14,679 nucleotides of DNA from a virus (taxonomy: Duplodnaviria > Heunggongvirae > Uroviricota > Caudoviricetes): IMG/VR virus record IMGVR_UViG_2698536369_000025; one strand, 5' to 3'. A program made the translations under genes and the position numbers. The notes beneath the pieces were generated by a model. It had not been told where the DNA came from. It saw only the letters and a program-made list of their open reading frames with translations, and ran no database searches. Every line of letters starts with the position of its first letter. The stretch's first letter is position 1. This document shows positions 1,611-14,679 of the stretch, one piece after another.

Positions 1611-2825
1611 GTGAAACTCAATGCCCGTCAAATAGACACTGCCAAGCCAAAAGAGAAGGCTTACAAGCTGGCTGATGGTGGTGGTCTGTATCTCTTGGTA
1701 AAACCTAGTGGAGGAAAATATTGGCGCTTCAAGTATCGTGTAGCTGGTAAAGAGAAGCTGTTAGCACTAGGTGTGTATCCTGAAGTTACCTTGGCTGATG
1801 CTCGTGCAAAACGTGAAGAAGCTAAAAGGGGTATCGCTGGGGGTATCGATCCGATGGAAGCGAAACGAGAGGAAAAGATTGCCCGGGAAACGCAGTTAAA
1901 CAACACCTTCAAAGATATTGCCCTTGAGTGGCACAGCAGCAAATTAAAAAAATGGTCTGCTGGTTATGCTTCAGACATCCTCGAAGCCTTCAACAAAGAT
2001 GTGTTCCCTTACATTGGCAAAAAACCAATCGCCGAAATCAAACCACTTGAACTGCTGAATGTGCTGCGGCGCATCGAGGGGCGCGGTGCTACCGAAAAAG
2101 CCAAAAAAGTGAGGCAGCGATGTGGGGAAGTTTTCCGCTATGCAATTGTCACTGGACGTGCTGAGTATAACCCTGCACCGGATCTCACCAGCGCGATGCA
2201 AGGACATGAATCTAATCATTATCCTTTCCTCACAGCCAAAGAATTACCTGATTTTTTCAAGGCATTGTCCAGTTACTCAGGAAGTGCATTGGTTGTTATG
2301 GCGGCTCGTTTACTGATTATCACCGGTTTGCGGACTGGCGAACTGCGCGGTGCATTATGGGATGAAATCGATCTCAACAAGGCTATCTGGGAGATACCTG
2401 CTTCACGGATGAAAATGCGTCGCCCTCATGTAGTGCCTTTGTCTGAGCAGGCTCTTTCGCTTATTGGGCAGATTAAAGAACTAACTGGCAATTATCCGCT
2501 TATGTTTCCCGGCCGTAATGATCCAAGGAAAACAATGAGCGAGGCTAGCATAAACCAAGTATTTAAACGCATCGGCTATAACGGAAAGGTTACTGGTCAT
2601 GGCTTCCGGCACACTATGAGCACCATTTTGCATGAGCAGGGCTATAACACCGCGTGGATAGAGACACAGCTTGCGCACGTCGATAAAAACTCAATTCGTG
2701 GCACATACAACCATGCGCAATATCTGGATGGGCGGCGGGAAATGCTTCAGTGGTACGCTGATTATATGGATTCGCTCGAGCATGGCGGAAATGTGGTGCA
2801 TGGTGAGTTCGGAAAATGCGGGTGA
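1611..2825 (+). CDS. int: Site-specific tyrosine integrase, P4-like family (404 aa)
   Basis: GTG start 1611 preceded by GGAGG 1598-1602. N-terminus AKPKEKAYKLADGGGLYLLVKPSGGKYWRFKYRVAGKEKLLALGVYPEV is the typical P4-integrase N-terminal domain. C-terminal catalytic region carries R (TGLRTGELR), HGFRHT and terminal Y (RGTYNHAQY). Sits directly beside a tRNA gene. Confidence 0.93.
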   Translation: MKLNARQIDTAKPKEKAYKLADGGGLYLLVKPSGGKYWRFKYRVAGKEKLLALGVYPEVTLADARAKREEAKRGIAGGIDPMEAKREEKIARETQLNNTFKDIALEWHSSKLKKWSAGYASDILEAFNKDVFPYIGKKPIAEIKPLELLNVLRRIEGRGATEKAKKVRQRCGEVFRYAIVTGRAEYNPAPDLTSAMQGHESNHYPFLTAKELPDFFKALSSYSGSALVVMAARLLIITGLRTGELRGALWDEIDLNKAIWEIPASRMKMRRPHVVPLSEQALSLIGQIKELTGNYPLMFPGRNDPRKTMSEASINQVFKRIGYNGKVTGHGFRHTMSTILHEQGYNTAWIETQLAHVDKNSIRGTYNHAQYLDGRREMLQWYADYMDSLEHGGNVVHGEFGKCG

Positions 2826-2947
2826 CTGGTTGAGTATACAGTAGTAGACTTTGAGCGACGAAAGAAAAGGCTGTGTCTAGGGTCGCTCCCGAAAATCCGT
2901 ACACCTCGACGGACTGGTACAGCCACTACAGTAGAGGACGCTGAGGT

Positions 2948-3751
2948 GTGCGTATGATTGATATTCATGCCGAATTAAACGAATACAAAAAAGATTTTAT
3001 TTCTTTACGTGAATTTCTTGAGGTCGTGCTTAAGGTCGCTGGTGATGATTATGATGTTTCAGATGTCATAACTTGGATACTCAGGAGAATAAGCGGAGAA
3101 CATATCCGCCTGTACACAGTAAATGAATTTAAGCTGTTGGAATCTTTTTGTAACCCGTATCGGGATGAATTTGATAATGATGTTCTTTATAGAAATCTGA
3201 ATGCGGTTCGGAAACGTGGTTGTTTACCTGGTGAGAGGGATGAAAATGGTTTTCTGGTGTCCGGTTATTGGGAAGATCCCGAATTTGAGAACATTGGATT
3301 TATAAGGGGTGAAATTTTCGCAATTTTTCCCGATGTCCTTGACGCGTTAACGAAGCTGGAAGGCGCTAACTCTTCTGAAAATGACGAGGCACAAGGACGC
3401 GATATTGAAAAGAAAGAGTTGCGTACAGAGGATGATTTATTATCCCAAATCGCAATGCTGGAAAAAGAAAACGCAGAGTTAAGGGCAAGGATAGAGCAGT
3501 TAGAGCAAGAGCGCCCGATACACTTATATAAATACTGGGATAAAGACCCATTAGCTAAGGCTATTGAGATTAGAAACAGAGAGTGGGCCAATTACGATCC
3601 AGAAAATGATTTTGCCACCAGGGGAAATCAAGAAGCGATAACCAGGGAGCTTAAGCAGTGGGGGGCAAGTAATGCACTTGCAACGCTCATAGAGAGGACT
3701 GCCTGCCCTATTAACCGAGACAACAGCCAAAAGAACGCAAAGCCGGATTAA
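2948..3751 (+). CDS. Hypothetical protein, about 265 aa, acidic with a central coiled-coil (LLSQIAMLEKENAELRARIEQLEQER); no recognised domain
   Basis: ORF 2948..3751; the more likely start is ATG 2954, with GAGG 2943-2946 seven nt upstream. Lower GC than flanks (24/60 G+C counted over 3001-3060). Followed by a palindrome plus T-run. Function unknown. Confidence 0.7.
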   Translation: MRMIDIHAELNEYKKDFISLREFLEVVLKVAGDDYDVSDVITWILRRISGEHIRLYTVNEFKLLESFCNPYRDEFDNDVLYRNLNAVRKRGCLPGERDENGFLVSGYWEDPEFENIGFIRGEIFAIFPDVLDALTKLEGANSSENDEAQGRDIEKKELRTEDDLLSQIAMLEKENAELRARIEQLEQERPIHLYKYWDKDPLAKAIEIRNREWANYDPENDFATRGNQEAITRELKQWGASNALATLIERTACPINRDNSQKNAKPD

Positions 3752-3764
3752 CGCACCATACCGC

Positions 3765-3912
3765 ATACCCTGAGGGTGATTTACTGTTACCCTGAGGGTA
3801 TTTTTTTATCTTCCCCGTCAATTTTACCATCACCCTTAGGGTAGATTTCCTCCCGATTACCATCACCCTTAGGGTAGATTTCCTTCCGGTAACCATTAGG
3901 CCTGAGGGTATG
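3765..3912. repeat. Array of near-palindromic ACCCT-N-AGGGT boxes (5 copies) including a roughly 32-bp tandem duplication; first pair plus T7 run may act as terminator of the upstream gene, the rest as operator sites upstream of alpA
   Basis: ACCCTGAGGGT at 3767-3777 and 3789-3799 (followed by T-run 3802-3808); ACCCTTAGGGT at 3832-3842 and 3864-3874 inside the tandem repeat TTACCATCACCCTTAGGGTAGATTTCCT (about 3825-3855 and 3857-3887); half-site CCTGAGGGTA 3901-3910. Confidence 0.6.
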
Positions 3913-3978
3913 AAAATATTCGTTATTTCTGTGCCATGATTACCTCGTCAAATTGAGTAGACGTTATGAGGTAAATAT

Positions 3979-4176
3979 ATGTCAAATACGCTTATTCGTT
4001 TAACAGAAGTTCAGCGTAGAACTGGATATAGCAAGGCATGGATTTATCGCCTTATGGGGCAAGGTAAATTTCCTGCATCAGTTAAAATTGGCTCGCGAGC
4101 TATTGCTTTCGTTGAGAGTGAAATTGACGAGTGGATTAATCAGCGTATTGCGGAATCACGCGGAACAGCTACCTGA
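3979..4176 (+). CDS. alpA: AlpA-family (prophage CP4-57-type) helix-turn-helix transcriptional regulator / excisionase-like protein, 65 aa
   Basis: ATG 3979 with GAGG 3968-3971. Translation MSNTLIRLTEVQRRTGYSKAWIYRLMGQGKFPASVKIGSRAIAFVESEIDEWI is the canonical AlpA pattern (RL.EV...TG.S....Y.....G.FP..VK.G.R...W...E...W). Typical partner of P4-type integrases. Confidence 0.85.
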   Translation: MSNTLIRLTEVQRRTGYSKAWIYRLMGQGKFPASVKIGSRAIAFVESEIDEWINQRIAESRGTAT

Positions 4177-4253
4177 TTAAATGGCTACGGGGCTATTGCC
4201 CCCAGCTATCCACCAGCAAATAAAAGTAACTTAATTCGATAGCAGGAGTTTTT

Positions 4254-5054
4254 ATGAAATTTCCAAAAACGCCCGTACAGGGGCGGGGCTTCGTTCGGCC
4301 TGAAAACCAGAATCTGCAAAATTTCGGCGAAATTATCCCGATTATTTCCGGCGTTATTGGCGGGAGTGAAACCACTATTGTTAGCGCCAGAGCGTTACAT
4401 AAGGCGTTAGGTGTAGGGCGCGTTTTCCGTTCGTGGATCAAGGGGCGCATTGAAGAATACGGGTTCACGGAAGGCGTGGATTATGAGGTTGTTGAATATT
4501 TGAGCCGACCCGATCCGGTGAGCGCAAAATCTCGCCAGCAAACCGCTCTTGAGTACATCATCACAGTGAACATGGCGAAAGAACTGGCGATGGTCGAACG
4601 TACCGAACAGGGCCGCGCCGTTCGCCAGTACTTTATCAAATGCGAGGAGGAGCTACACAAGGTTGCGCCTGTTCGTTCCGCAGCGTTACGCCGGGAACTG
4701 AAAGCCCGTATCACCGTTGCCAGCTACTTTAAGCCGATGTGTGCCGCGCTGGAGGCGTACCGGGCTGAACTGGGTAAAAACACGTTCCAGCACCACTACA
4801 CCACGGAAGCCAATATGCTGGCGCGTATCGTGCTGGGTGGCATGACTGCAAAACAGTGGGCGCAGGCGAACGGCATCACAGGCGAACCACGCGACCACAT
4901 GAGCACGTTGCAGCTTGAGCACCTTTCTTACCTTGAGCAGAGCAATATCACGCTGATTGAGTTAGGCCAGGACTACCACCAGCGGAAAGCTGAATTAATT
5001 CGCCTTTCGCAGCGTTGGTTAGCCCGTCGCATGGAGGAAAACAGCCATGTGTAA
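4254..5054 (+). CDS. Phage antirepressor-like regulatory protein (AntA/Bro-N-like N-terminal domain), 266 aa
   Basis: ATG 4254 with AGGAG 4244-4248; TAA 5052-5054. N-terminal segment TIVSARALHKALGVGRVFRSWIKGRIEEYGFTEGVDYEVV resembles the AntA/Bro-N antirepressor fold (recalled pattern, not searched). Assignment to the antirepressor family is moderate; the CDS call is stronger. Confidence 0.7.
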   Translation: MKFPKTPVQGRGFVRPENQNLQNFGEIIPIISGVIGGSETTIVSARALHKALGVGRVFRSWIKGRIEEYGFTEGVDYEVVEYLSRPDPVSAKSRQQTALEYIITVNMAKELAMVERTEQGRAVRQYFIKCEEELHKVAPVRSAALRRELKARITVASYFKPMCAALEAYRAELGKNTFQHHYTTEANMLARIVLGGMTAKQWAQANGITGEPRDHMSTLQLEHLSYLEQSNITLIELGQDYHQRKAELIRLSQRWLARRMEENSHV

Positions 5055-5324
5055 CGCTCTGACCGTTACAAAAAGAGAAAGCGCCCCGTTGCCGGAGCGC
5101 CTTTGTGAACGAATAGCCTACTGCGCCATATTGCTTACTGTCTACGAGGCAGATTATAGCGTTGTGGTCGCACAGAGTGAAGGCGCTGATCACCGTTACT
5201 ACAGCACGCCAGAAATGCAGAATATTTTGCTGCAAAATGTCGTTGGTCACGCTGTCCGGAAAGCAAAAAATTTTGCTGGTGGCGCGACTGATGCGATTTT
5301 TTCTGGTCGCCCGGTGCTGATCAA

Positions 5325-5627
5325 CTACTCCTGTTCTTTGGCCTTGCGGCGCTGGAGTTCTTCACGCGCGACGGTGACGAGTTGCCCGATCTCCTCGGCA
5401 GCTTTGACACCGATTTTTTCCACCTGCGCCAGTGCATCGAGCGAAGAAACCAGGGGATTTTCTCCTCTTCCTTCTGCCTGGCGGCGAGCGATCTCACCGC
5501 ACATGGCGGTTACTATGAATCCGGCGTTGCTTTCGCCGTCCAGTTTTACGGATTCCATGCCCTCCATAACATCGTGGGGAACCCTGATCGTTGTCATTTG
5601 CGATTTTGCATTTTTGTATACAGACAT
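5325..5627 (-). CDS. Small putative DNA-binding protein (ribbon-helix-helix-like N-terminus TTIRVPHDVMEGM), 100 aa, convergent with the upstream gene and divergent from the small-ORF operon
   Basis: Minus-strand ATG at 5627-5625, stop (CTA on plus) at 5325-5327; GGTGA-like SD upstream on the minus strand. Sits next to an operator-like repeat array. It fully overlaps a longer plus-strand ORF (5047..6201) judged spurious in this part. Confidence 0.6.
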   Translation of the reverse strand: MSVYKNAKSQMTTIRVPHDVMEGMESVKLDGESNAGFIVTAMCGEIARRQAEGRGENPLVSSLDALAQVEKIGVKAAEEIGQLVTVAREELQRRKAKEQE

Positions 5628-5835
5628 AGTTAATCACCAATTTGTTATGTGTATATCACTATACACAAAAGTGAGATATAAAAACACTTGCAATGTATAT
5701 CACCACAATATAATGTGTATCTCACATGGAGGTCGCTATGTATCTCACAATGAGCGATTCATAAAAACGACGAAACCCGGCAGTGCGCGAACACTAACCG
5801 GGCTTCTAACCAAACCGTTAAATGAGGTAACGATT
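5628..5835. promoter_or_regulatory. Divergent promoter/operator region with five copies of TGTAT(A/C)TCAC in both orientations, including a perfect 8-4-8 palindrome
   Basis: Palindrome TGTGTATA-tcac-TATACACA 5648-5667; GTGAGATATA 5671-5680 (inverted copy); TGTATATCAC 5694-5703; TGTATCTCAC 5717-5726 and 5739-5748. Lies between the minus-strand RHH-like gene and the plus-strand operon start at 5836. Confidence 0.55.
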
Positions 5836-6201
5836 ATGGCTGGAACACAGCATACCCAAACTCACCCTAAATTTATATACACCTTCCTGGCGGTGCACCG
5901 TGATTGCATGGCTGACGGTAAAAACACTGTACACGTAGCCGCTGATACGCTGGTGGATGCCTGCAAGATGCTCAATGATATGGGCTATATCTCGGCAACA
6001 TGGAAAGGGCGCGAAGAAAACACGCTGTTTATTCAGAAATGCGAAAACAATTTTATATGGCGTTTTATCGCCCTGAGCACAGCACAACCGCGTGTAATTC
6101 ACATCGAGGCCACCAGCGAACAGGAAGCACGCCAGCAATCTCCTGATGGCTGCGTGATGGTATTCGCTGCCCGCATTCGCCAGGAGGTGGAACATGTGTA
6201 A
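5836..6201 (+). CDS. Hypothetical protein, 121 aa, first gene of a coupled small-ORF operon
   Basis: ATG 5836 with GAGG 5824-5827 eight nt upstream; TAA 6199-6201. Same frame as the long ORF 5047..6201, but only this part has an RBS and does not overlap the minus-strand gene. Confidence 0.7.
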   Translation: MAGTQHTQTHPKFIYTFLAVHRDCMADGKNTVHVAADTLVDACKMLNDMGYISATWKGREENTLFIQKCENNFIWRFIALSTAQPRVIHIEATSEQEARQQSPDGCVMVFAARIRQEVEHV

Positions 6202-6418
6202 TGCAACATGGCCTGATGCAGCGGTAGACGCTATCAAAACGCTGATGGATTCACTTGTTGAGATTTCTGCTATCGCTGGTGTGGCGCATAAACACGCAGC
6301 CAGAGAATCAGAATGCATCTCCCATTATTTAGCATTTGTGCAGCTAAAAGCCGATCAGGCACTGGATAAGGCCGGAAAAATTATCATGGCTGATGTGCAG
6401 GAGGTGCACCATGCATAA
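6194..6418 (+). CDS. Hypothetical small protein, 74 aa
   Basis: ATG 6194 overlaps the stop of the previous gene; AGGAGGTGG 6182-6190 upstream. Translational coupling pattern. Confidence 0.6.
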   Translation: MCNATWPDAAVDAIKTLMDSLVEISAIAGVAHKHAARESECISHYLAFVQLKADQALDKAGKIIMADVQEVHHA

Positions 6419-6776
6419 CCTGTCAATTTCTGACCTTAACAGCATTCAGTTTGACGAGAAATTTACCGGGCAGTTGCTGGTCAATGTGGAGAACGGGCGC
6501 ATAGTGCGTAATTACCACCTGCCGGATGGTGCAATTGCCGGAAGCGTTGAAGCATTGCTGGAACTGGCGGAACGTGCGCGACTGATTAAGCCGTCAACGA
6601 GCCATCACGATGATGATCTGCATTTTACCGGGCGTATGGTGAGTCACTACGAAAACGGCGTTGAAGTATCCCGCGAACGGCTGCGTGATGATTGCTGTTT
6701 CGGCACACTGCCGGAATTTATCGAGTTGCTGAACAGTTGCGGTTATCAGGTCATTCAGGGGGGTAAACATGCGTGA
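6411..6776 (+). CDS. Hypothetical protein, 121 aa
   Basis: ATG 6411 with AGGAGG 6399-6404 six nt upstream; overlaps the previous stop (6416-6418). The six-frame ORF begins at 6393 but lacks an RBS there. Confidence 0.65.
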   Translation: MHNLSISDLNSIQFDEKFTGQLLVNVENGRIVRNYHLPDGAIAGSVEALLELAERARLIKPSTSHHDDDLHFTGRMVSHYENGVEVSRERLRDDCCFGTLPEFIELLNSCGYQVIQGGKHA

Positions 6777-7002
6777 TGATCGTTTTAATTCCCTGAAACG
6801 GGAATTTGATGGCGCACCGGAAGATGCAGCGGGCGCATTGTTGAGCGTTGCTGACATGATGAAAGCTGCATATTTTCTTATCAATACCAGTGGCTACAAG
6901 TCAGAGGGTGAAATGATTCTTAGTATTGCGTCGGACTATGCGGAATATGTGGCAGAGACGCGTTACAGAAGAAAATTCACGGAGGATGTAAGCCATGCAT
7001 AA
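6769..7002 (+). CDS. Hypothetical small protein, 77 aa
   Basis: ATG 6769 overlapping the previous stop (TGA 6774-6776); G-rich SD 6758-6763. Confidence 0.6.
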   Translation: MRDDRFNSLKREFDGAPEDAAGALLSVADMMKAAYFLINTSGYKSEGEMILSIASDYAEYVAETRYRRKFTEDVSHA

Positions 7003-7195
7003 TCATGAAGCGCATGTACCCGTAGTGCTTAATGTGCCAGATGATTTCACCGGACGCGTACTGGTTTACCTGGATAAAGGGAAAGTGAAATCACAATGCC
7101 GACTGAAAAGTAATGAGATTGTTGGTTCTCCTGAATTTTTTTCTGAACTTTGTATTCGTGCGGAAATAAAACCGGAACTGCTGACAGGAAAATAA
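6995..7195 (+). CDS. Hypothetical small protein, 66 aa
   Basis: ATG 6995 with GGAGGA 6981-6986 eight nt upstream; overlaps the previous stop (7000-7002). Confidence 0.55.
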   Translation: MHNHEAHVPVVLNVPDDFTGRVLVYLDKGKVKSQCRLKSNEIVGSPEFFSELCIRAEIKPELLTGK

Positions 7196-7199
7196 AACC

Positions 7200-7514
7200 A
7201 TGAAAAAGAAAAATTCTGGCTTTACTGCCAGCGGCCTCTCTCGGCCTGAAATCCGCCCCGGCGATATTTTCCGGGATAAATACGGCAGCACGATAACGGT
7301 AAAAACCGTCGATGATTTTCGCGTGACCTATATCCGCGAAGGTTATACGCATCCCTGCGTGTCGTCACATATGCGCTTTGAAAGGGAATTCATCCTGGTA
7401 AGTAAAGCGCCACTAGCAGAATTAAGCGACATCGACAAAATCATGAGCGTCACGGGCGCGGAACGCATCAGGACAGTACGTGAAATTATTCGTGAGCGGG
7501 GAGGTAAGAAGTGA
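7200..7514 (+). CDS. Hypothetical protein, 104 aa
   Basis: ATG 7200 four nt after the previous stop; its stop TGA 7512-7514 overlaps the GTG start of the replication gene. Confidence 0.6.
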   Translation: MKKKNSGFTASGLSRPEIRPGDIFRDKYGSTITVKTVDDFRVTYIREGYTHPCVSSHMRFEREFILVSKAPLAELSDIDKIMSVTGAERIRTVREIIRERGGKK

Positions 7515-9643
7515 AAAACGCACCGAATTTAAAATATCAGCCGAAGGATAAATTCACCGAGGTAATCATTTTTGCCGGGACGGATGCTTACGCCCATGCT
7601 CAACACTGGATTGAAAGCGAAGGACGAAAACACGGCGATAACGTGCCACCTGTTTATCTGGGGCCAAAGCAACTGGCAGACCTGGCGAATATCCGCATTA
7701 TTGACGCGAAACGCCGCTTTGCACGTGTCTATCTCGCGGGGGAGATAGAACCAATCCAGATCAATGCTATCGCTGAAAAGCTGGCGCTGGCTGGCGTACA
7801 GGAGGCGAAATTATACAAAGGTATCACCGACCGGGAGCCGGAGAACTGGCACGACTACCTGCAACGGATCCGCGAACAGGCCGAACGCGGGGAAACCATG
7901 ACGGAGGAAGTCAGGAGAGTGGGGGGATTGCCCGGAAGAACAGATCCCATGAAACCGCATATCACCGAAAAAGATGGTGCGCTCTGGTATGTCGAGCCAA
8001 TACCCAATACCAGAGCAGAGGAGCTGAATCATAAGGAAACCTGGTTGAGTGACAGGATGCGCACAGCGGGTATTGGTAATGACGGTCGGGAAGCGTATCT
8101 GATAATTGAAATGATCCCGGAAGGAACACAGAAAATTATTTACGAAGCGATGCCGCGCAATGAAATCGGTATGCCAGCAGGATGGGCGAGGTTACGTGGA
8201 CGGGGTGTTGCAATCACCACCAGCGCCCATTTACTGAATAAACTGGCGGAATACCTGCAACGTCAGGGAGATCGTACTGTGTGGGAGGTCACATCAACAG
8301 CCGGATGGCATTGTGGAGCCTATGTTATGCCAGATGGTGAGGTGATTGGTGTACCGGATCGTCCAGTGGCATTCTGTGGCGGATCTGCAGCCATCAAAGG
8401 CTATATCGTCAGGGGGACGGTACAGGAATGGAGGAATAATGTCGCCTCCCTGATGAGAGGTAATCACTCAATGATGCTTGGGGTACTGGTCGGACTGGCA
8501 GCACCCCTTAATTCTCTTGTGGGCGGAAGTTGTTTTGGTATCCACCTTTTCGCGCAGTCGTCAGCAGGGAAAACCACGACGGTGGAAGCTGCCACCAGTC
8601 TTTATGGCGATCCTGAAATGCTCAAACTTTCGTGGGATGCCACCCGGCACGGACTGACGGTGGAAGCTGCCGCACGTAATGATGGCTTTATCCCCATTGA
8701 TGAAATTGGTCAGGGAGGAAGGATTAATGACATCGCGCAATCCGCCTACAGCCTGTTTAACGGTGTGGGGAGAATTCAGGGACGAAAAGATGGCGGCAAT
8801 CGTGCAGTAATGCGCTGGAAAATAGCGGCACTAAGCACAGGGGAAGAAGATTTTGAGACCTTCCTGTTAAAAGGGGGGATCACCCCAAAAGCCGGGCAAC
8901 TGGTGCGGCTGCTAAGCGTTCCCTTTACCGATACAACGGTTTTTAACGGGTATGACGATGGTGATCAACATGCCAGAGCAATAAAGCGACTTTCATCAAA
9001 TTATTGTGGAGCTGCGGGGCGTGAGTGGGTGCGCTGGTTATCCGCTCATAAGGAACTGGCTATTAACACCACTTCCGATAAAGAAAATACCTGGCTGGGA
9101 AATCTGCCTGAAAATGCATCGTCACAGGTCAGACGTGTGGCTTCACGCTTTGCCATGCTGGATGCGGCCGGAGAACTTGCCACCGCAATTACTGGCTGGA
9201 CAGCCGAAGAATGCCGGGCAGCAACACAACGGGCTTTTGATGACTGGTTACAGGATTTCGGGCTGGAAAACCGGGAAAAATACCAGGTCATCAGCCGCGC
9301 CCGTGATTTTATTCAGCGCCATGCCCTGAGCCGTTTTCAGCCTTATACCTACGGGAAAAGCAATGGAAATATGGATAACCACTATGCATCCCGTATAAAC
9401 AACCTTGCAGGGTATCTTGTCAGTGGTAAGCGTGAGGATGGAAAACCCGAATATCACATTATCCCGTCAGTGTTTGATGGCGAAATTTTATGCGGCATAT
9501 CCAGGAACTTTGGGTGTCAGGCGCTGGAGGAAGCCGGAATGCTGGTTTGTGCAGAACCCGGTCGCTGGACATCGAAAACGGTGAAGATTAACGGAACACA
9601 GCAGCGATTTATCGTGCTGATTGACCAGGCTGAAGACGAATAA
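7511..9643 (+). CDS. Putative replication initiation protein of the element: P-loop NTPase, primase/helicase-like (DUF927-type), 710 aa
   Basis: GTG 7511 with GGGGAGG 7494-7500. Walker A HLFAQSSAGKTT and Walker B-like GFIPIDEIGQ in the central region; conserved TAGWH motif; comparable in size and position to P4 alpha-type proteins. An iteron array lies immediately downstream. Family assignment is from recalled motifs. Confidence 0.8.
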   Translation: MKNAPNLKYQPKDKFTEVIIFAGTDAYAHAQHWIESEGRKHGDNVPPVYLGPKQLADLANIRIIDAKRRFARVYLAGEIEPIQINAIAEKLALAGVQEAKLYKGITDREPENWHDYLQRIREQAERGETMTEEVRRVGGLPGRTDPMKPHITEKDGALWYVEPIPNTRAEELNHKETWLSDRMRTAGIGNDGREAYLIIEMIPEGTQKIIYEAMPRNEIGMPAGWARLRGRGVAITTSAHLLNKLAEYLQRQGDRTVWEVTSTAGWHCGAYVMPDGEVIGVPDRPVAFCGGSAAIKGYIVRGTVQEWRNNVASLMRGNHSMMLGVLVGLAAPLNSLVGGSCFGIHLFAQSSAGKTTTVEAATSLYGDPEMLKLSWDATRHGLTVEAAARNDGFIPIDEIGQGGRINDIAQSAYSLFNGVGRIQGRKDGGNRAVMRWKIAALSTGEEDFETFLLKGGITPKAGQLVRLLSVPFTDTTVFNGYDDGDQHARAIKRLSSNYCGAAGREWVRWLSAHKELAINTTSDKENTWLGNLPENASSQVRRVASRFAMLDAAGELATAITGWTAEECRAATQRAFDDWLQDFGLENREKYQVISRARDFIQRHALSRFQPYTYGKSNGNMDNHYASRINNLAGYLVSGKREDGKPEYHIIPSVFDGEILCGISRNFGCQALEEAGMLVCAEPGRWTSKTVKINGTQQRFIVLIDQAEDE

Positions 9644-10103: not shown

Positions 10104-10661
10104 ATGACGGCAACAATGATGGGGAAGAGCATGCCAAAGCTGACCATTAACAGAAAGCCAAAAGGCATTTACGGCACGCCGCAGAAAACGACGCAGGCGG
10201 CACAGGAGCAGGATAAAACCACATCGGCACATAAAGTGATGCCCGGTAACCAGAAAGCGCAGCAGAAGCCCACAGGGGCGACACCGTGGCGGCATATGAC
10301 CAAACGGCAGCGCAAAAACCGCAGGCGCGTTAACCGCCTCACTGAGTTGTGGCCTGAATTATTCAGCCGGGAAGCACCGAAGCCGCTTAAGGTGGGGATA
10401 TTCGACGACCTGATGCAGGATCTCGCCGTCAGGGGGCTGGCATTCGGGCCAGGGGCATTACGTGCGACGCTGGCATCTTATGCGCAGTGTCCGCGCTATT
10501 ACCGCGCCTTAATGGCTGGTGGGGTACGCTACGACCTGAAAGGCCAGCCGTGCGGCGAGGTGACACCACAGGAACAACAGGACGCAGAAACGCGGCTGGT
10601 GGCGCTGAATGAGAAGCGCAAACGTCAGCGCCGGGCAGCAAAGGAGAAAACAGGTGCATGA
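10104..10661 (+). CDS. ProQ/FinO-family RNA-binding protein (185 aa as drawn; true start may be an internal ATG near 10131)
   Basis: Segment PLKVGIFDDLMQDL...LRATLASYAQCPRYYRALMAGGVRYDLKGQPCGEV parallels the ProQ N-terminal FinO-like domain (PLKIGIF.DL......LR.AL..Y......Y.......R.DL.G.PCGE); basic N- and C-terminal tails. Confidence 0.8.
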   Translation: MTATMMGKSMPKLTINRKPKGIYGTPQKTTQAAQEQDKTTSAHKVMPGNQKAQQKPTGATPWRHMTKRQRKNRRRVNRLTELWPELFSREAPKPLKVGIFDDLMQDLAVRGLAFGPGALRATLASYAQCPRYYRALMAGGVRYDLKGQPCGEVTPQEQQDAETRLVALNEKRKRQRRAAKEKTGA

Positions 10662-10945
10662 TTCACGACAGCAAAGCGGAAGCACTGGAAGCGCGTGGTC
10701 TGTACCGGAGAGCGGCGGAACGGTGGGCTGAGGTCATTATGCTGGCGAACGGTGACAAGGCACGGGAACAGGCGGCAAAGCGCCGTGCGGAATGTATCCG
10801 CAAGGCAGCACGCCCACCAGCAAAGCAGGATAATTTCGGGGAGATGCGCGAAACCATCAGCCGGGCACATGCCGGAATGGGATTACATCAGCCCAATGGT
10901 AAGGCATTCAGGAAATATCCTGGATCGAAAAATTGCAGTCAGTGA
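10658..10945 (+). CDS. PerC-family transcriptional regulator-like protein, 95 aa
   Basis: ATG 10658 overlaps the stop of the previous gene (ATGA). N-terminal AEALEARGLYRRAAERWAEVIM matches the PerC/Pch motif (LE.KGLWRRAA..W..VM), recalled from memory. Confidence 0.65.
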   Translation: MIHDSKAEALEARGLYRRAAERWAEVIMLANGDKAREQAAKRRAECIRKAARPPAKQDNFGEMRETISRAHAGMGLHQPNGKAFRKYPGSKNCSQ

Positions 10946-11055
10946 CGGAGGCCGGGATTTTTCCCGGCCTTATTGCATTTCATTAATTGCAATATTTATT
11001 GCTATCATTTCATTTTGTGCAATTGTTGTGGTTGTTATTATTCGGGAGAAAAATC

Positions 11056-11223
11056 ATGAAAGGTCACGGAGTAAAGCCAGTTTTACTTTCCCGGAGGCAG
11101 ATTGAAGCCCTGCAACGTATCCAGGACGAAGAGCGTCAGAAATCTGTGCTTGGTGTGGCGCCGTCGATTCATGTTATTGCCCGGCAACTGATGGATAAGG
11201 CACTTAAAGAGGTGAGACTGTGA
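11056..11223 (+). CDS. Hypothetical small protein, 55 aa (MKGHGVKPVLLSRRQIEALQRIQDEE...)
   Basis: ATG 11056 with GGGAG 11044-11048; stop overlaps the next start. The longer six-frame ORF from 10987 has a hydrophobic, RBS-less leader, so the shorter form is preferred. Confidence 0.55.
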   Translation: MKGHGVKPVLLSRRQIEALQRIQDEERQKSVLGVAPSIHVIARQLMDKALKEVRL

Positions 11224-11492
11224 AATTAAATATCAGAGTGGATAAACGCCAGCTATGGCAGAAAAAAGAGAACAGCGAGGCATTCAGGGCGTTGCTGGTG
11301 GAAAATCTTCAGCACCGGTTCAGTGGAGAGTTGCCTGATGCGCTGGGGAAGAAACTGGAATCTCTGACAGTGGAAATTGGCGATTATGGTTTTGTTGATG
11401 TTGAAAGCACGACAGCCAACACAGAAATCGTAAAACAGGTCGTCAACGATGTAATGAAAACCACGCTTAGTCAGCCATCCTGGCGTAACTGA
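11220..11492 (+). CDS. Hypothetical protein, 90 aa
   Basis: GTG 11220 overlapping the previous stop (GTGA); followed by a GC-rich hairpin at 11499-11519. Confidence 0.55.
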   Translation: MKLNIRVDKRQLWQKKENSEAFRALLVENLQHRFSGELPDALGKKLESLTVEIGDYGFVDVESTTANTEIVKQVVNDVMKTTLSQPSWRN

Positions 11493-11498
11493 ATCAAC

Positions 11499-11520
11499 AA
11501 GGGGCAGTTATTGCCCCTTT
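11499..11520 (+). terminator. Putative intrinsic terminator hairpin
   Basis: AAGGGGCA (11499-11506), loop GTTAT, TGCCCCTT (11512-11519), then T. The U-tract is short, so efficiency is uncertain. Confidence 0.4.
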
Positions 11521-11590
11521 CCTCCATATCCACAACGCATTCCTTTTCCGCATGAAATTATTTTTATCGTATATGCATGAGGTGAGCCAC

Positions 11591-12118
11591 ATGTTGATGA
11601 GTAAAGCTGAATACGCCAAACACAAAGGCGTAAGCCGCCAGACAGTTTACGACTGGATCGAGAAAGGCGAAGTGGTTATGTCCGGTAAAAAAATCGATGT
11701 GGAAGCGACAGAGCAGCGGAACAGCCCACCAGCACAGGGAAAAGACGCAGTTTCTGAAATGTGGCCAGAAAGAACGCTGGAAATGACGTGGGGCGAGTTC
11801 TGGAAAGCAGTTAAGGCCAGAGACGGTAAAATCCCTGCACCAGTAACGGACGATGACATACGGCAGCGTGTGCTGAATGCAGCCGGGGAATTAGGCTGGG
11901 AAGTGCAATTTCTTGATGGTGGTGCTATCTGCCTTGAGGATTGCGACGGGCAGCATTACTTTGAACAATACAATTTGCGGGGTAATGCCTGGCTGGCAAT
12001 TCGTATGTTGCGTTGTGAACTATGCTATGTTGCCAGCGATTGTCCCGATGAACAGGACACATGGAGTGAGGCAGGACTAAACGCCCTGGCTGAATGGGAA
12101 AAATCAGGCCATCAATGA
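11591..12118 (+). CDS. Putative HTH DNA-binding protein with Cys-rich C-terminal region, about 175 aa
   Basis: Preferred start ATG 11591 with GAGGTGAG 11579-11586 (the six-frame ORF starts at 11552 without an RBS). N-terminus SKAEYAKHKGVSRQTVYDWIEKGEV is a helix-turn-helix of the excisionase/MerR-like type. C-terminus has CLEDCDGQH...CELCYVASDC. TGA 12116-12118. Confidence 0.7.
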   Translation: MLMSKAEYAKHKGVSRQTVYDWIEKGEVVMSGKKIDVEATEQRNSPPAQGKDAVSEMWPERTLEMTWGEFWKAVKARDGKIPAPVTDDDIRQRVLNAAGELGWEVQFLDGGAICLEDCDGQHYFEQYNLRGNAWLAIRMLRCELCYVASDCPDEQDTWSEAGLNALAEWEKSGHQ

Positions 12119-12536: not shown

Positions 12537-12929
12537 GCGGAGCGTTACGGTAAGCCAACAGCCAAGCCAAACATTAAGTCTACAGGTAAGGTTGTTTTTT
12601 TGCAGGTGGCATTAATTTGTATGTTGGTTTGAGGAGCATTTTTACTGAGACTGTCTGTTCTGGTTAGTTTTTTCGTATGATATACACCTCATCAAAATTG
12701 TCCGACAGTGTGGAGCGGCGTGGCGGGGAGAGTATTGTGTGCTAGAGATTATAGTTACACTTTAATCTACGACACGATCGTAATTTTTCACTCTTCTTTT
12801 CAGATAAGCTACTACTGAGTTCACAAAAATAACATTATTTTATATCCATGCGTTATCTTTATCTGATATTAATGTGCTGTTCGGTCTTTTTTTGACTGCA
12901 AACGGCATGAATCATATTAAGGAAACCAA

Positions 12930-13091
12930 GTGAAAATATCTTTTTTTGGCGTAAATAACTTTAGGACAATATCAGGTGGCATTGGTAATAATAGAATAAT
13001 ATTTAAAGATACCAATACGCTTTTCATTTACGGGGCAAATAATGCTGGAAAATCAACTTATTTAAAAGCATATATGTTTTTTTTACAGTAA
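12930..13091 (+). CDS. N-terminal fragment (53 codons) of an OLD-family ABC-type ATPase carrying the Walker A motif; out of frame with the downstream part because of a T8 run
   Basis: GTG 12930 with AAGGAAA 12919-12925. Translation VKISFFGVNNFRTISGGIGNNRIIFKDTNTLFIYGANNAGKSTYLKAYMFFLQ* has the same opening architecture as P2 Old/GajA-type ATPases (as recalled). TAA 13089-13091 follows the T8 run 13077-13084. Confidence 0.6.
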   Translation: MKISFFGVNNFRTISGGIGNNRIIFKDTNTLFIYGANNAGKSTYLKAYMFFLQ

Positions 13092-13173
13092 TGAAAAACC
13101 TATCATTGATGATTTCTTTAAACGAGACGACAATAATTCTATTGAGTTCGAATTAGAAGTTCAACTTGATGAC

Positions 13174-14679
13174 TTGGATAAAGAAAGAATAGAAGCCAAA
13201 GCACCGAAGCAAAAGGAAAGTTATAAGAAGTATTTAAATAATGATTTTATTAGAATTAAGAAAGTATGGAGTAAAAATGGAACAAGAATAGAGGATAAAA
13301 ATTATACTTATGATTATAGTAAAGGAGATAGCGGCGAGTATGATGAAGTTGGATATGCAACAATTGGTTTGCATCAGGTCTTCCAATCTTGTTTGCCAAA
13401 ACCTGTATTTATAAAGGCTATGCCAACAGAGGAAGAAGCTAAGAAGATTCTTAATGAAATCCTAAAGATGATGGCTGAAAATACACTTAAAACATCTGAT
13501 CTTGATGAATTAAAAGCAGCTCAGAATAAAATAAAAGAATTACAAGACAAAATGTATGATCCAGAATTAATTGAAACCTATCAGAATTCAGTTAACGGAT
13601 ACTTTAACAAGATATTCGGTGATACTGCTATATGCTTCAAAGATCAAAAAGATAGGGTTGTTTGGACGGAGAATAAGCTTGGCAGAGATTTTGAAATTGA
13701 GTTTATGAAAAAAAATAGCCAAGGGGAGTTTGATGGCAATATCCCTTCAAGTTATAGCAGTGTAGGTCATGGAACTATTAGGACTGCAATATTTACATTA
13801 TTATTGATGAGAGATGTAGCAGAGCGTTTTGAAAGAAGGCTTGGACGTAAAGATTACATGGTTCTGTTTGAGGAGCCTGAGCTATTTCTCTATCCTAGAA
13901 TGGTGAAGGAACTTCGTGAATTGATTTATCAGGTGAGCACTGAAGACCTTCCATATCAAGTACTTTGTGCCTCACATTCATCTTCCATGATAGATCTTTC
14001 AAAGCCTAAATCTTCGATAATACGATTAGTTAATAATTCTACTGGAACTAAATCATATCAAATTAATGATCAATTTTTGAAGGATGCAAAAGGCATTGCT
14101 ACAAATGCTGAACTTAAACAAGAAATGTATGAAGTTTTGAGGTTCAACCCTTATATTTGTGAATCATTCTACGCTGATGAGGTACTTCTGATTGAGGGGC
14201 CAACAGAAGAAATAATATGTAGAGCTTTTTTACAAGAAACCCCATCAGATAAATCTATATTCGTATTGAACTGTGGTACGGTTAATAACATTCCTTTTTA
14301 TCAAAAAATCTTCTCAAGGTTTAATATAAAATATCATGTGATCTGTGATACAGATAAAGCAGAAATAGTTACCGTAGATCAATCTGGCAATGCAGATTTT
14401 GATTCTGGAATACAGAAAACAATTTCAGAACAGTATAGGAATGATTGTACTGCAATGAATGGTAATATAGGACTACTTCGAACTCATAACATTACATTTG
14501 AACCTGCTCATCAAGATGTTAGTATTCCTGACTTTTTGAGATTTGTTGATTGCGGTGATAGAAGCAAACCATTTAATGCAAACTTGTACTGGAAGGATAT
14601 TTTAAGGCCAAATATATCACATCAAGATATAAATAAAGTGCCTATAATTAAGTATTTGAATGAAATAATAGCACATTAA
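13174..14679 (+). CDS. OLD-family (overcoming lysogenisation defect) ATPase-Toprim nuclease-like protein, C-terminal about 500 aa; candidate anti-phage defence gene; frameshifted relative to its N-terminal Walker A fragment
   Basis: Open frame runs back to 13066 without a stop; the track start at 13174 is TTG. Motifs: GHGTIRTA (Q-loop/signature-like), VLFEEPELFLYP (Walker B), CASHSS (H-loop), then Toprim-like LLIEGPTEE and a DTD acidic motif (VICDTDK). AT-rich (15/60 and 21/60 G+C in two counted 60-nt samples, against 32/60 in the replication gene). TAA is the last codon of the window. Confidence 0.8.
   Translation: MDKERIEAKAPKQKESYKKYLNNDFIRIKKVWSKNGTRIEDKNYTYDYSKGDSGEYDEVGYATIGLHQVFQSCLPKPVFIKAMPTEEEAKKILNEILKMMAENTLKTSDLDELKAAQNKIKELQDKMYDPELIETYQNSVNGYFNKIFGDTAICFKDQKDRVVWTENKLGRDFEIEFMKKNSQGEFDGNIPSSYSSVGHGTIRTAIFTLLLMRDVAERFERRLGRKDYMVLFEEPELFLYPRMVKELRELIYQVSTEDLPYQVLCASHSSSMIDLSKPKSSIIRLVNNSTGTKSYQINDQFLKDAKGIATNAELKQEMYEVLRFNPYICESFYADEVLLIEGPTEEIICRAFLQETPSDKSIFVLNCGTVNNIPFYQKIFSRFNIKYHVICDTDKAEIVTVDQSGNADFDSGIQKTISEQYRNDCTAMNGNIGLLRTHNITFEPAHQDVSIPDFLRFVDCGDRSKPFNANLYWKDILRPNISHQDINKVPIIKYLNEIIAH

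What the first reader, a model, noticed from the sequence alone, without database searches (positions are those of the whole stretch)
2948..3751. Lower-GC orphan gene wedged between integrase and alpA: unexplained cargo
The roughly 265-aa product has no motif I can place. It has an N-terminal globular part, a strongly acidic linker and a leucine-rich coiled-coil (EKENAELRARIEQLEQER). It is AT-richer than its neighbours (about 40% G+C in a counted 60-nt sample) and ends in a palindrome plus T-run, so it looks like an independently acquired single-gene module. The int-proximal slot in such islands often holds accessory genes, so a single-gene abortive-infection or anti-defence function is a hypothesis only.
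Basis: inference. Interest (0 to 1): 0.55.

Follow-up and report, generated by a model that had tools for sequence, protein, structure and literature searches.

The report
Candidate regulator gene beside satellite alpA
The "orphan" gene is not random cargo: it belongs to an uncharacterised, domain-shuffling protein family that always sits just upstream of alpA, the master activator of phage-satellite islands, next to its own array of repeated palindromic DNA sites, so it is probably the switch protein that controls when the satellite wakes up.

Summary
The ORF is real: ATG at 2954, 265 aa, in an E. coli thrW satellite island. It matches nothing in Pfam, NCBIfam, PHROGs, PADLOC or the PDB. It is not an orphan, though, because about 122 clusters at 50% identity exist.

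The protein has four parts:
- a hypervariable winged-helix-like N-domain;
- a disordered acidic linker;
- a leucine-zipper helix;
- a conserved 70-aa four-helix C-domain with no fold match.

In 51 of 56 distinct loci, from Enterobacterales, Pasteurellaceae and Orbaceae, an alpA-like gene follows within 450 nt. The spacer between them holds 133 AC[CT][CA]TNA[GT][GA]GT palindromes, about 800 times the density in the rest of the loci. Their spacing falls on multiples of about 11 bp. Half-site sequence tracks a C-domain motif (TRGNQ with ACCCT).

A near-isogenic E. coli island has Int 403/404 and AlpA 63/65 identical. It has swapped exactly gene plus spacer for a remote homologue with different repeats.

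The Rfam int-alpA RNA motif is the gene's 5' leader. Palindromes 1 and 2 also form its terminator.

Best reading: a dimeric DNA-binding regulator of the alpA promoter with a swappable sensor domain. Nothing supports a defence role. All function is inferred.

The parts
2870..2937 (+). Rfam RF02996 'int-alpA RNA' motif. Here it is the 5' leader of gene X, and its 3' consensus AgGG runs into X's ribosome-binding region.
   Evidence: It scores 45.5 bits against a gathering score of 35.8. The same motif ends 12-21 nt before the start codon of X or X'' genes (or, in L015, of an IS-truncated X-like N-terminal ORF) in L002, L004, L012, L015, L016, L018, L022, L032 and L034; it also precedes X in L011, L013 and L023, and lies further upstream in L020. 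It is absent from X' cassettes and from the X-less island EcCIMP1.
2874..3957 (.). The exchangeable cassette: most of the leader, gene X and the repeat-bearing control region, ending 21 nt before the alpA ATG.
   Evidence: blastn of the window against L009 gives 98.2% identity over 1-2873 and 98.3% over 3958-7894, with no similarity between. Int is 403/404 identical and AlpA 63/65 identical.
2954..3751 (+). Gene X coding sequence, 265 aa plus stop. The ATG at 2954 is preferred over the GTG at 2948.
   Evidence: It is 100% identical in E. coli F9792 and other strains, and present in 148 of 5,426 complete E. coli genomes, always on the chromosome.
2954..3373 (+). N-domain, residues 1-140. It is hypervariable, has winged-helix-like topology, and is the proposed input or sensor module.
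3374..3427 (+). Acidic, disordered linker, residues 141-158.
   Evidence: pLDDT is below 50 over 141-158.
3428..3511 (+). Leucine-zipper-like helix, residues 159-186. It is the proposed dimerisation element.
   Evidence: A single long helix spans 159-186. L169, L176 and L183 lie seven residues apart and are invariant or nearly so. Only sub-threshold hits to bZIP_2, DivIC and Max were found.
3512..3721 (+). Conserved C-domain, residues 187-256: four helices ending in the invariant motif IE.VACPI.R. It is the proposed DNA-recognition module.
3765..3808 (+). Intrinsic terminator of X: palindromes 1 and 2 pair as a 15-bp stem, followed by T7.
   Evidence: The fold is -23.9 kcal/mol with z = -5.6. 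The terminator-like scan also flags it, as does inverted repeat I3.
3767..3777 (.). Palindrome 1, ACCCTGAGGGT.
3789..3799 (.). Palindrome 2, ACCCTGAGGGT.
3832..3842 (.). Palindrome 3, ACCCTTAGGGT, inside the first 33-nt direct repeat (3824-3856).
3865..3875 (.). Palindrome 4, ACCCTTAGGGT, inside the second 33-nt direct repeat (3857-3889).
3899..3909 (.). Promoter-proximal degenerate site, GGCCTGAGGGT (9 of 11). The half-site CTGAGGGTATGA is conserved across genera.
3932..3940 (+). Candidate extended -10 box, TGcCATGAT, for an alpA promoter. This is an inference.
   Evidence: A TGn-hexamer box lies 46-47 nt upstream of the alpA ATG in 29 of 41 distinct upstream regions. Caveat: the consensus sigma-70 scan found no promoter anywhere in 2700-4300.
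3979..4176 (+). alpA, the satellite's master activator and the presumed target of the regulation.
   Evidence: Pfam Phage_AlpA, E = 2.4e-19. Its role in Gram-negative satellite islands comes from PMC6092414 and PMC11773190.

Best explanation
Gene X encodes a sequence-specific DNA-binding regulator of the satellite's master activator gene, alpA.

**Proposed mechanism**
1. The leucine-zipper helix (residues 159-186) dimerises the protein.
2. That places two copies of the conserved four-helix C-domain (187-256) on the two half-sites of each TACCCTNAGGGTA palindrome.
3. Four or five palindromes lie on one face of the DNA between the end of X and the alpA promoter, so bound dimers can cooperate. 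The promoter-proximal site would lie at about -43 from the inferred start site.
4. The hypervariable N-domain, which is exchanged by recombination, is the input module. It most plausibly recognises a helper-phage protein, so that each allele couples alpA expression to a particular helper.

I favour repression that a helper relieves, by analogy with Stl of staphylococcal islands. An activator role fits the geometry equally well.

**What is shown**
- the domain architecture;
- the near-invariant position upstream of alpA;
- the enrichment, phasing and covariation of the sites;
- the exchange of gene plus sites as a unit.

**What is inferred**
- that X binds DNA;
- the sign of regulation;
- what the N-domain senses.
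For: **Position**
- 51 of 56 distinct loci have an alpA-like gene within 450 nt downstream, and 42 of 56 have an integrase upstream.
- Two sister families sit in the same place: X'' (same N-domain, different C-domain) and X' (remote C-domain homologue; hhalign probability 77%, E = 2e-5).

**Sites**
- 133 AC[CT][CA]TNA[GT][GA]GT sites lie in 14,560 nt of X-alpA spacers. Only 6 lie in the other 554,954 nt of the same loci.
- Centre-to-centre spacings cluster at 22-23, 31-34, 41-44, 54-55 and 65 nt. These are multiples of about 11, so the sites share one helical face.

**Reverse look-up**
- Only 48 stretches in the 2.9-million-contig IMG/VR collection carry a pair of such palindromes. 32 of them encode the X C-domain within 700 nt upstream. 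Three more are the same spacer cut at a locus end.

**Covariation**
- TRGNQ-type C-domains go with ACCCT half-sites (184 of 192).
- IPTQ, K/RPTQ and APKA types go with ACTAT, ACCAT or mixed half-sites (only 34 of 74 are ACCCT).
- Fisher p = 3e-19, not corrected for phylogeny.

**Not Int or AlpA sites**
- In L009, Int (403/404) and AlpA (63/65) are unchanged, while X and all the palindromes are replaced together by X' and different repeats.

**Other cassettes**
- Other cassettes carry their own repeats: AGGTGCCCACC four times in Pseudomonas, CACCCATCC/GGATGGGTG in L038, and ACCTACCAAT as an inverted repeat after X''.

**Modularity**
- N-domain identity ranges over 13-77% while C-domain identity stays at 46-96%.
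- The two domains assort independently.

**Literature**
- Whether Gram-negative satellite islands have a global repressor is described as unclear.
- How a helper switches on alpA is described as unknown (PMC6092414).
Against: - **No direct evidence of DNA binding.** The C-domain has no fold or sequence relative among known DNA-binding domains. Its net charge is zero (pI 6.8) and the whole protein is acidic (pI 4.7).
- **Palindromes 1 and 2 are explained at least partly by the terminator**.
- **X is optional.** EcCIMP1, a functional island at the same thrW site that its helper induces through alpA, has no X gene. X therefore cannot be the universal switch of these islands.
- **Gene and sites could travel together for another reason.** A helper-encoded or host factor might bind the sites.
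- **No consensus promoter was found in the spacer**.
- **The covariation statistic is not phylogeny-corrected.**
Confidence: 0.55

Rival explanations
1. X does not bind DNA. It is a protein-binding adaptor or interference factor. Its variable N-domain grips a helper-phage protein, and its conserved C-domain grips a conserved island or host partner such as RNA polymerase, AlpA or Int. The palindromes are terminator and promoter elements read by some other factor, from the helper or the host, and travel with the gene only because they are adjacent.
For: - The protein is acidic, with a neutral C-domain.
- No DNA-binding fold was detected.
- Palindromes 1 and 2 form a good terminator.
- A variable N-domain with a constant C-domain is also the pattern expected of an adaptor.
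- Helpers are known to activate the alpA promoter in islands that lack X.
Against: - Sites 3-5 are not part of any terminator.
- Helical phasing in multiples of about 11 bp across 56 spacers points to a DNA-level array.
- Half-site sequence tracks a motif inside the C-domain.
- Each sister cassette brings different repeats while Int and AlpA stay the same.
- The reverse look-up from the DNA motif recovers X in 35 of 48 cases.
Confidence: 0.2
2. X is a single-gene accessory function, either abortive infection or another anti-phage defence, or an anti-defence protein, carried as cargo in the int-proximal slot.
For: - The gene has lower G+C than int and is exchangeable.
- A fast-evolving N-domain is typical of arms-race proteins.
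- Satellites do carry defence cargo, as the OLD nuclease in this island shows.
Against: - PADLOC gave no hit.
- The gene is never found away from alpA, whereas defence cargo moves between contexts.
- Where extra genes lie after int, the related X' gene keeps its place next to alpA.
- It is embedded between a conserved leader RNA and a conserved site array.
- No homologue exists in 50,697 phage genomes.
Confidence: 0.07
3. The palindrome array is a replication-origin or partition (centromere-like) iteron set. X is its initiator or centromere-binding protein, serving a plasmid-like state of the excised island.
For: - The repeats are phased at 22, 33 and 44 bp and include two 33-nt direct repeats.
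- The N-domain is weakly winged-helix-like, as in Rep initiators.
Against: - The island has its own DUF927 primase-helicase. In these islands the origin lies downstream of the primase gene (PMC10111431).
- No ParA/ParM-type partner was seen in the island: the Pfam scan of the ten largest ORFs and the RefSeq annotation of the F9792 copy show none.
- The array always abuts the alpA start.
Confidence: 0.05
4. X is a recombination accessory, either an architectural protein or a directionality factor, that helps Int and AlpA in excision or integration.
For: - It sits in the zone that PMC10111431 calls the integration zone, between int and the Xis-like alpA.
Against: - The sites lie about 2.3-2.5 kb from the attachment site at the tRNA-Thr gene (1369-1444), far outside normal arm regions.
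- An island with the identical Int and AlpA uses a different cassette with different repeats.
- Functional islands excise without X.
Confidence: 0.05

Closest known systems
Stl / Rpr master repressors of staphylococcal and other Gram-positive phage-inducible chromosomal islands
   Same: Both are satellite-encoded and lie next to int. Both are highly diverse between islands. Both are proposed to hold the island's activation genes under control until a specific helper protein is sensed. Their modular evolution fits helper specificity.
   Different: There is no sequence or fold relationship and no recognisable Cro/C1-type helix-turn-helix. X is co-directional with int and alpA rather than divergent from the regulated operon. 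Its sites lie downstream of the gene. Repression and helper sensing are untested here.
Lambdoid immunity regions (repressor plus operators, exchanged as 'imm' cassettes)
   Same: A regulator gene and its cognate repeated operator sites are swapped as one block between otherwise near-identical elements. The sites are phased, which suggests cooperative binding.
   Different: The protein family, the site sequence and the gene order all differ. The target is a single downstream activator gene rather than divergent lytic promoters.
AlpA / Vis (Xis-like MerR-type regulators of satellites, Pfam PF05930)
   Same: It belongs to the same regulatory zone. The alpA promoter is autoregulated and helper-inducible (PMC6092414, PMC11773190), so X would act on the same promoter.
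   Different: X is not a member of this family, since it has no PF05930 or HTH_17 hit. The palindromes change while AlpA stays 63/65 identical, so they are not AlpA's specific sites.
Rfam RF02996 'int-alpA RNA' motif (from my recollection of Weinberg et al. 2017; not re-read here)
   Same: The element at 2870-2937 is a bona fide member at 45.5 bits.
   Different: Rfam types it as a gene or sRNA lying between int and alpA. In most of the loci examined here it directly precedes the start codon of X-type genes (in L015 an IS-truncated one) and is missing where X is missing. A cis-acting 5' leader is therefore the better description.
[quoted passage not shown]
   Same: These are satellite-encoded, domain-shuffling DNA-interacting regulators found in a dynamic zone near alpA (PMC10111431).
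   Different: X has no Bro-N, AntA or KilA domain. The AntA-type gene of this island is the next gene after alpA (4254-5054).

Membership tests
Stl/Rpr-type satellite master repressor | Encoded beside int and transcribed divergently from the regulated xis-rep operon, with operators in the divergent intergenic region | tested here: not met
   int, X and alpA all lie on the + strand, and the repeats lie downstream of X and upstream of alpA.
Stl/Rpr-type satellite master repressor | Recognisable helix-turn-helix DNA-binding domain | tested here: not met
Stl/Rpr-type satellite master repressor | Represses the island's activation genes, with repression lifted by binding a specific helper-phage protein | not testable with these tools
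   There are only indirect hints: a hypervariable, recombining N-domain and operator-like arrays at the alpA promoter.
Sequence-specific dimeric DNA-binding regulator (generic) | Cognate palindromic sites, repeated, phased and enriched next to the gene | tested here: met
   133 sites in the spacers against 6 elsewhere. Spacings are multiples of about 11 bp. 35 of 48 motif pairs in IMG/VR are linked to X.
Sequence-specific dimeric DNA-binding regulator (generic) | Site sequence covaries with protein sequence, independently of neighbouring proteins | tested here: met
   TRGNQ goes with ACCCT, and the other motif classes go with ACTAT, ACCAT or mixed half-sites (not phylogeny-corrected). The cassette swap leaves Int and AlpA unchanged.
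Sequence-specific dimeric DNA-binding regulator (generic) | Demonstrated or fold-inferred DNA binding | tested here: inconclusive
   The C-domain has no fold match. Its charge is neutral. The X' homologue has a basic C-terminal tail.
Known anti-phage defence systems (PADLOC-DB 2.0) | Match to a model of a known or candidate defence protein | tested here: not met
   X matched 0 families. The OLD-type gene at 13174 onwards matched Old at E = 1e-50.
Winged-helix fold (N-domain) | a1-b1-a2-a3-b2-b3 topology with a significant structural match to winged-helix domains | tested here: inconclusive
bZIP / leucine-zipper proteins | Pfam bZIP at or above the gathering score, with a basic region N-terminal to the zipper | tested here: not met
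   bZIP_2 scores 18.6 bits, below the 22.3 cut-off. The segment before the zipper is acidic, not basic. Only the heptad leucines fit.
Rfam RF02996 int-alpA RNA (the 5' element) | Covariance-model score at or above the gathering threshold | tested here: met
   45.5 bits against 35.8, over the full-length model 1-71.
Gram-negative phage-inducible chromosomal island / P4-like satellite (the host element) | tRNA-adjacent tyrosine integrase, alpA and a primase-helicase, mostly unidirectional, with no phage tail or lysis genes | tested here: met
   tRNA-Thr at 1369-1444, int, AlpA (E = 2e-19), AntA, an Icd-like gene, a DUF927 primase and ProQ/FinO, all on the + strand. Mobilisation by a helper was not tested.
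Intrinsic terminator (3' end of X) | A stable G+C-rich hairpin immediately followed by a U-run | tested here: met
   -23.9 kcal/mol with z = -5.6, followed by U7.

The most novel reading that the evidence does not exclude
X, together with its sister families X' and X'', is the missing helper-sensing master regulator of a large subset of Gram-negative phage satellites. It would use a previously undescribed four-helix DNA-binding fold joined to a zipper, holding the alpA promoter through a phased operator array. Its freely exchangeable N-terminal sensor domain would decide which helper phage can wake the island. The Rfam 'int-alpA' RNA would be its leader and would control how much regulator is made.
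Probability: 0.3. Interest if true: 0.78.

Novelty: new variant of a known kind. Interest (0 to 1): 0.62.

Why it matters
[quoted passage not shown] How a helper phage switches on alpA is also described as unknown (PMC6092414).

This work gives a concrete candidate protein, its candidate operator sequence, and natural cassette swaps that act as ready-made controls. That makes the question directly testable.

If the model holds, three things follow:
- It would explain helper specificity in a large group of islands in Enterobacterales, Pasteurellaceae and Orbaceae.
- It would add a new DNA-binding domain family.
- It would re-assign a curated Rfam motif from free-standing sRNA to 5' leader.

It would also be practically useful for engineering satellite-based delivery vehicles whose induction can be re-targeted.

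If the model fails, the result still removes this gene from lists of defence candidates.

Tried and rejected
**Searches that gave no name or no match**
- Family libraries (Pfam, NCBIfam, PHROGs, PADLOC) gave no name for X. Pfam also gave none for 20 relatives with other domain combinations or for X'.
- PDB searches by sequence and by profile returned only coiled-coil noise such as Max and GCN4. A C-domain-only profile reached E = 0.07 at best.
- tblastn against 50,697 phage genomes gave no match.

**Ideas tested and dropped**
- EcCIMP1_002, the gene that PMC11773190 places between int and alpA of a characterised thrW island, might have been X. It is not. That 427-nt gap holds only tiny ORFs, no RF02996 motif and no palindromes.
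- The palindromes might have been Int or AlpA sites. The isogenic cassette swap rules this out.
- The palindromes might have been only a terminator. That holds for sites 1 and 2 in this allele. It does not hold for sites 3-5, nor for loci where the first two sites lie 31-54 nt apart.
- The array might have been a replication or partition iteron set or recombination arm sites. I judged both unlikely; the reasons are under the rival explanations.

**Null result that limits the model**
- The consensus sigma-70 scan of 2700-4300 found no promoter. The promoter I propose rests only on a conserved TGn-hexamer box.
Full report
**Setting**

The window is Escherichia coli DNA. It runs from proA (1-1254) through tRNA-Thr(CGT) (1369-1444, the thrW site) into an island, and every gene listed below lies on the + strand:
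- a tyrosine integrase (1611-2825);
- the gene in question (2954-3751, called X here);
- alpA (3979-4176);
- an AntA-type gene (4254-5054);
- an Icd-like gene;
- a DUF927 primase-helicase (7511-9643);
- ProQ/FinO (10104-10661);
- a TerS-like helix-turn-helix gene;
- a low-G+C OLD-family nuclease at the far end.

This is the layout of a Gram-negative phage-inducible chromosomal island, or P4-like satellite. The same gene is 99% or more identical in 141 complete E. coli genomes, is present in 148 of 5,426, is always chromosomal, and is annotated "hypothetical protein".

**The observation**

The ORF is real. The ATG at 2954 has a GAGG 7 nt upstream, matches the MIDI/MLDI start of all homologues, and matches the RefSeq annotation, so it is the likely start and the product is 265 aa. 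None of Pfam, NCBIfam, PHROGs, PADLOC or the PDB sequence search names the protein.

- a folded N-domain at residues 1-140;
- a disordered linker at 141-158;
- a long helix at 159-186.

G+C is 41.5% for X, against 47.7% for int and 53.7% for antA. The spacer (42.7%) and alpA (42.9%) are no richer.

The palindrome plus T-run is real. Two palindromes pair into a -23.9 kcal/mol hairpin followed by U7.

- a conserved C-terminal domain at residues 187-256;
- the fact that the palindrome ACCCTNAGGGT occurs four times exactly, plus once at 9 of 11 bases, in the 227 nt before alpA. The window-wide expectation is 0.15, and 0 of 200 shuffles reached four.

**A modular family, not an orphan**

A word-indexed search found 43 relatives, almost all enterobacterial. 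An exhaustive profile search of 1.84 billion representatives found 122 clusters.

The alignment shows a sharp contrast between the two ends. The C-terminal 70 residues are conserved, with invariant D198, R207, W211, I246, E247, C251, P252, I253 and R255. The N-terminal 140 residues are not. Identity to the window protein is 13-77% in the N-domain and 46-96% in the C-domain, and the two assort independently.

The C-domain is found behind at least five unrelated N-termini. The N-domain is also found in front of a different C-terminal domain, in proteins I call X''.

In E. coli locus L002, only window 2975-3523 is replaced relative to the window. That is a swap of the N-domain and the linker-zipper segment only.

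With an 82-sequence alignment, the C-domain folds confidently into four helices (pLDDT 91, pTM 0.77). It has no convincing structural or profile relative:
- BFVD gave E of 1.3 or worse;
- the PDB profile search gave E of 0.07 or worse.

**Position**

I collected loci from NCBI, Logan, ENA, GTDB genomes and IMG/VR. This gave 56 distinct X-downstream regions from Enterobacteriaceae, Erwiniaceae, Morganellaceae, Pasteurellaceae, Orbaceae and metagenomes.
- In 51 of them an alpA-like gene starts within 450 nt on the same strand. Spacers are mostly 158-227 nt.
- In 42 of them a related integrase lies upstream.

X'' proteins occupy the same int-X''-alpA slot.

A second family, X', also sits directly before alpA or a small gene in alpA's position in E. 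coli, a Salmonella-like contig, a Dickeya-like contig and Pseudomonas. It has 62 homologues, all hypothetical. Its C-terminus is a remote homologue of the X C-domain (hhalign probability 77%, E = 2e-5) and ends in a basic tail. In L036, two extra genes lie between int and X', so X' keeps its place beside alpA rather than beside int.

X is not universal. EcCIMP1 is an experimentally mobilised thrW island whose helper induces its alpA promoter. It has only a 427-nt gap there, with no X, no leader motif and no palindromes (PMC11773190).

**The site array**

I searched the 56 distinct spacers with the pattern AC[CT][CA]TNA[GT][GA]GT.
- It occurs 133 times in 14,560 nt of spacer.
- It occurs 6 times in the other 554,954 nt of the same loci, which is roughly an 800-fold enrichment.
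- Distances between neighbouring site centres fall at 22-23, 31-34, 41-44, 54-55 and 65 nt. These are multiples of about 11, so the sites share one face of the helix.

That pattern is typical of cooperative protein binding and is not expected of RNA hairpins.

The reverse test also holds. Only 48 stretches in the 2.9-million-contig IMG/VR collection contain two such palindromes 9-35 nt apart.
- 32 of them encode the X C-domain within 700 nt upstream.
- Three more are the same spacer truncated by the locus edge.

**Whose sites are they?**

Three lines of evidence point to the X C-domain.

1. E. coli EC23-1020 (L009) carries the same thrW island.
   - It is 98.2% identical to the window over 1-2873 and 98.3% identical over 3958-7894.
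   - Int is 403/404 identical and AlpA is 63/65 identical.
   - Window 2874-3957 is replaced by X' plus a spacer that lacks these palindromes and has its own repeats.
   - The palindromes therefore do not belong to Int or AlpA. They belong to the cassette.
2. Very different N-domains keep the same palindromes as long as the C-domain type is the same (window, L002, L004, L011-L014).
3. The half-site follows a short motif at the start of the third C-domain helix.
   - TRGNQ-type proteins have 184 of 192 half-sites as ACCCT.
   - IPTQ, K/RPTQ and APKA types have ACTAT, ACCAT or mixtures; only 34 of 74 are ACCCT.
   - Fisher p = 3e-19. This is not corrected for shared ancestry, so it is suggestive only.

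Losing an arginine when GGG/CCC becomes ATA/TAT is what a base-reading residue would do. That last point is my inference.

Sister cassettes bring their own repeats:
- AGGTGCCCACC four times in Pseudomonas;
- CACCCATCC/GGATGGGTG in L038;
- ACCTACCAAT as an inverted repeat after X''.

**Flanking elements**

Rfam RF02996, the "int-alpA RNA", matches window 2870-2937 at 45.5 bits against a gathering score of 35.8.
- In nine loci it ends 12-21 nt before the start codon of an X or X'' gene, or, in L015, of an IS-truncated X-like N-terminal ORF, whatever the N- or C-domain type.
- It also precedes X in L011, L013, L020 and L023. In L020 it lies further upstream.
- It is absent from X' cassettes and from EcCIMP1.

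It is therefore better described as the 5' leader of X than as a free-standing sRNA.

On the 3' side, palindromes 1 and 2 double as X's terminator in this allele. alpA must then have its own promoter within about 3809-3978.
- A TGn-hexamer box (window 3932-3940, TGcCATGAT) sits 46-47 nt before the alpA ATG in 29 of 41 distinct upstream regions.
- If it is an extended -10, the degenerate proximal site centres near -43 and the others near -77, -110, -153 and -175.
- This is inference. The consensus promoter scan found nothing in 2700-4300.

**Interpretation**

The best-supported reading is that X is a dimeric, sequence-specific regulator of the alpA promoter.
- The zipper dimerises the protein.
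- Each C-domain reads one half-site.
- The N-domain is an exchangeable input domain.

The architecture, position, site statistics and cassette behaviour are shown. DNA binding, the sign of regulation and the ligand are inferred.

I favour a helper-relieved repressor, by analogy with Stl. The published view is that a global repressor in Gram-negative islands is "unclear" and the helper's inducing signal unknown (PMC6092414). I found no later paper in the held library that fills this gap.

Several points count against the reading:
- the acidic protein (pI 4.7);
- the uncharged C-domain;
- the absence of any known DNA-binding fold;
- the optional nature of X;
- the possibility that a helper or host factor reads the sites.

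A defence or anti-defence role has no support.
- PADLOC gave no hit.
- The gene is never found away from alpA.
- No homologue turned up in 50,697 phage records.

The island's recognisable defence cargo is the OLD-family nuclease in the 33% G+C right end (PADLOC Old, E = 1e-50).

**Verdict**

This is a real feature and is not ordinary cargo. It is an uncharacterised protein family with a strong, multi-clade genomic signature of being the cis-linked regulator of the satellite master activator.
- Novelty: new variant of a known kind. It resembles a satellite or phage regulator with operators, but with an unrelated fold and architecture.
- Confidence in DNA-binding regulation of alpA: 0.55.
- Confidence in the full helper-sensing repressor model: about 0.3.
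- Interest: 0.62.

Noticed in passing
window 2870-2937 (+); also L002 7917-7984, L004 7919-7986, L032 1574-1641, L034 1661-1721, L022 5201-5266: The Rfam 'int-alpA RNA' (RF02996), typed there as an sRNA gene, ends 12-21 nt before the start codon of X-type genes in most loci examined. It is missing where X is missing or is replaced by X'. It looks like a cis-acting 5' leader. Its consensus has a U-run after the outer stem, so it could be an attenuator after int.
   Followed up: partly
window 3942-3948 and 3964-3971 (alpA 5' UTR): A conserved inverted repeat, CTCGTAA...TTACGAGG, has a 3' arm that contains alpA's Shine-Dalgarno sequence. The window copy, CCTCGT...ATGAGG, keeps the pairing through a G-U change. 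This suggests translational control of alpA by a hairpin that sequesters the ribosome-binding site. I saw it in most enterobacterial loci listed.
   Followed up: no
window 12600-14679 (ORF from 13174, running off the end): A very low-G+C block (29-39% in 300-nt windows, 32.8% overall) encodes an OLD-family ATPase plus TOPRIM nuclease (PADLOC Old, E = 1e-50; Pfam OLD-like_TOPRIM and AAA_15). This is the island's recognisable anti-phage cargo, at the end opposite to int.
   Followed up: partly
window 5047-6201: The 384-aa ORF is probably over-called. Only its last 50 or so residues match the Icd-like cell-division inhibitor (NF033153, E = 4.5e-22). In a related copy, RefSeq annotates several small genes there, including a YlcI/YnfO gene on the minus strand.
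   Followed up: no
L011 9038-9223, L012 8897-9124, L020 8815-8902, L032 3443-3643, L036 5313-5517, L022, L023: Many related islands carry P4-type immunity RNAs (Rfam C4, isrK, c4-a1b1) shortly after alpA, which ties this island group to P4-like regulation. The window itself has no such hit at gathering score.
   Followed up: no
L010 (E. coli 52F4) 3189-4577: A 99%-identical X gene with its palindromes sits in an island at a tRNA-Gly site beside actS. There the region from alpA to the replication gene is deleted, so the spacer abuts a truncated RepA-family helicase gene. The same X cassette thus occurs behind integrases at different attachment sites.
   Followed up: partly
L012 5920-6855; also L011 and L013: In Raoultella, Kluyvera and Pantoea, X appears as a 152-153-aa C-terminal ORF. 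In Raoultella (L012) an upstream 149-aa ORF carries the N-terminal part. This is either a recurrent frameshift or a genuine two-gene version.
   Followed up: no
L015 4137-5394 (Xenorhabdus ehlersii): An IS630-like transposase has inserted into a first X-like gene directly after the int-alpA RNA motif. A second, intact X gene follows before alpA.
   Followed up: no
L150 3494-8049 (IMG/VR contig of 127 kb): Three separate pairs of ACCCTNAGGGT palindromes occur in an unrelated large viral contig with no X gene nearby. They may be that phage's own regulatory or terminator repeat, or a possible target. I did not examine it.
   Followed up: no
window 10104-12118: A ProQ/FinO-domain protein (E = 9e-24) is followed by a region annotated as PerC-family in related copies, and then by a 188-aa helix-turn-helix protein with a weak small-terminase PHROG hit (phrog_57, E = 3.7e-8). 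This last gene is a candidate packaging-redirection gene.
   Followed up: no
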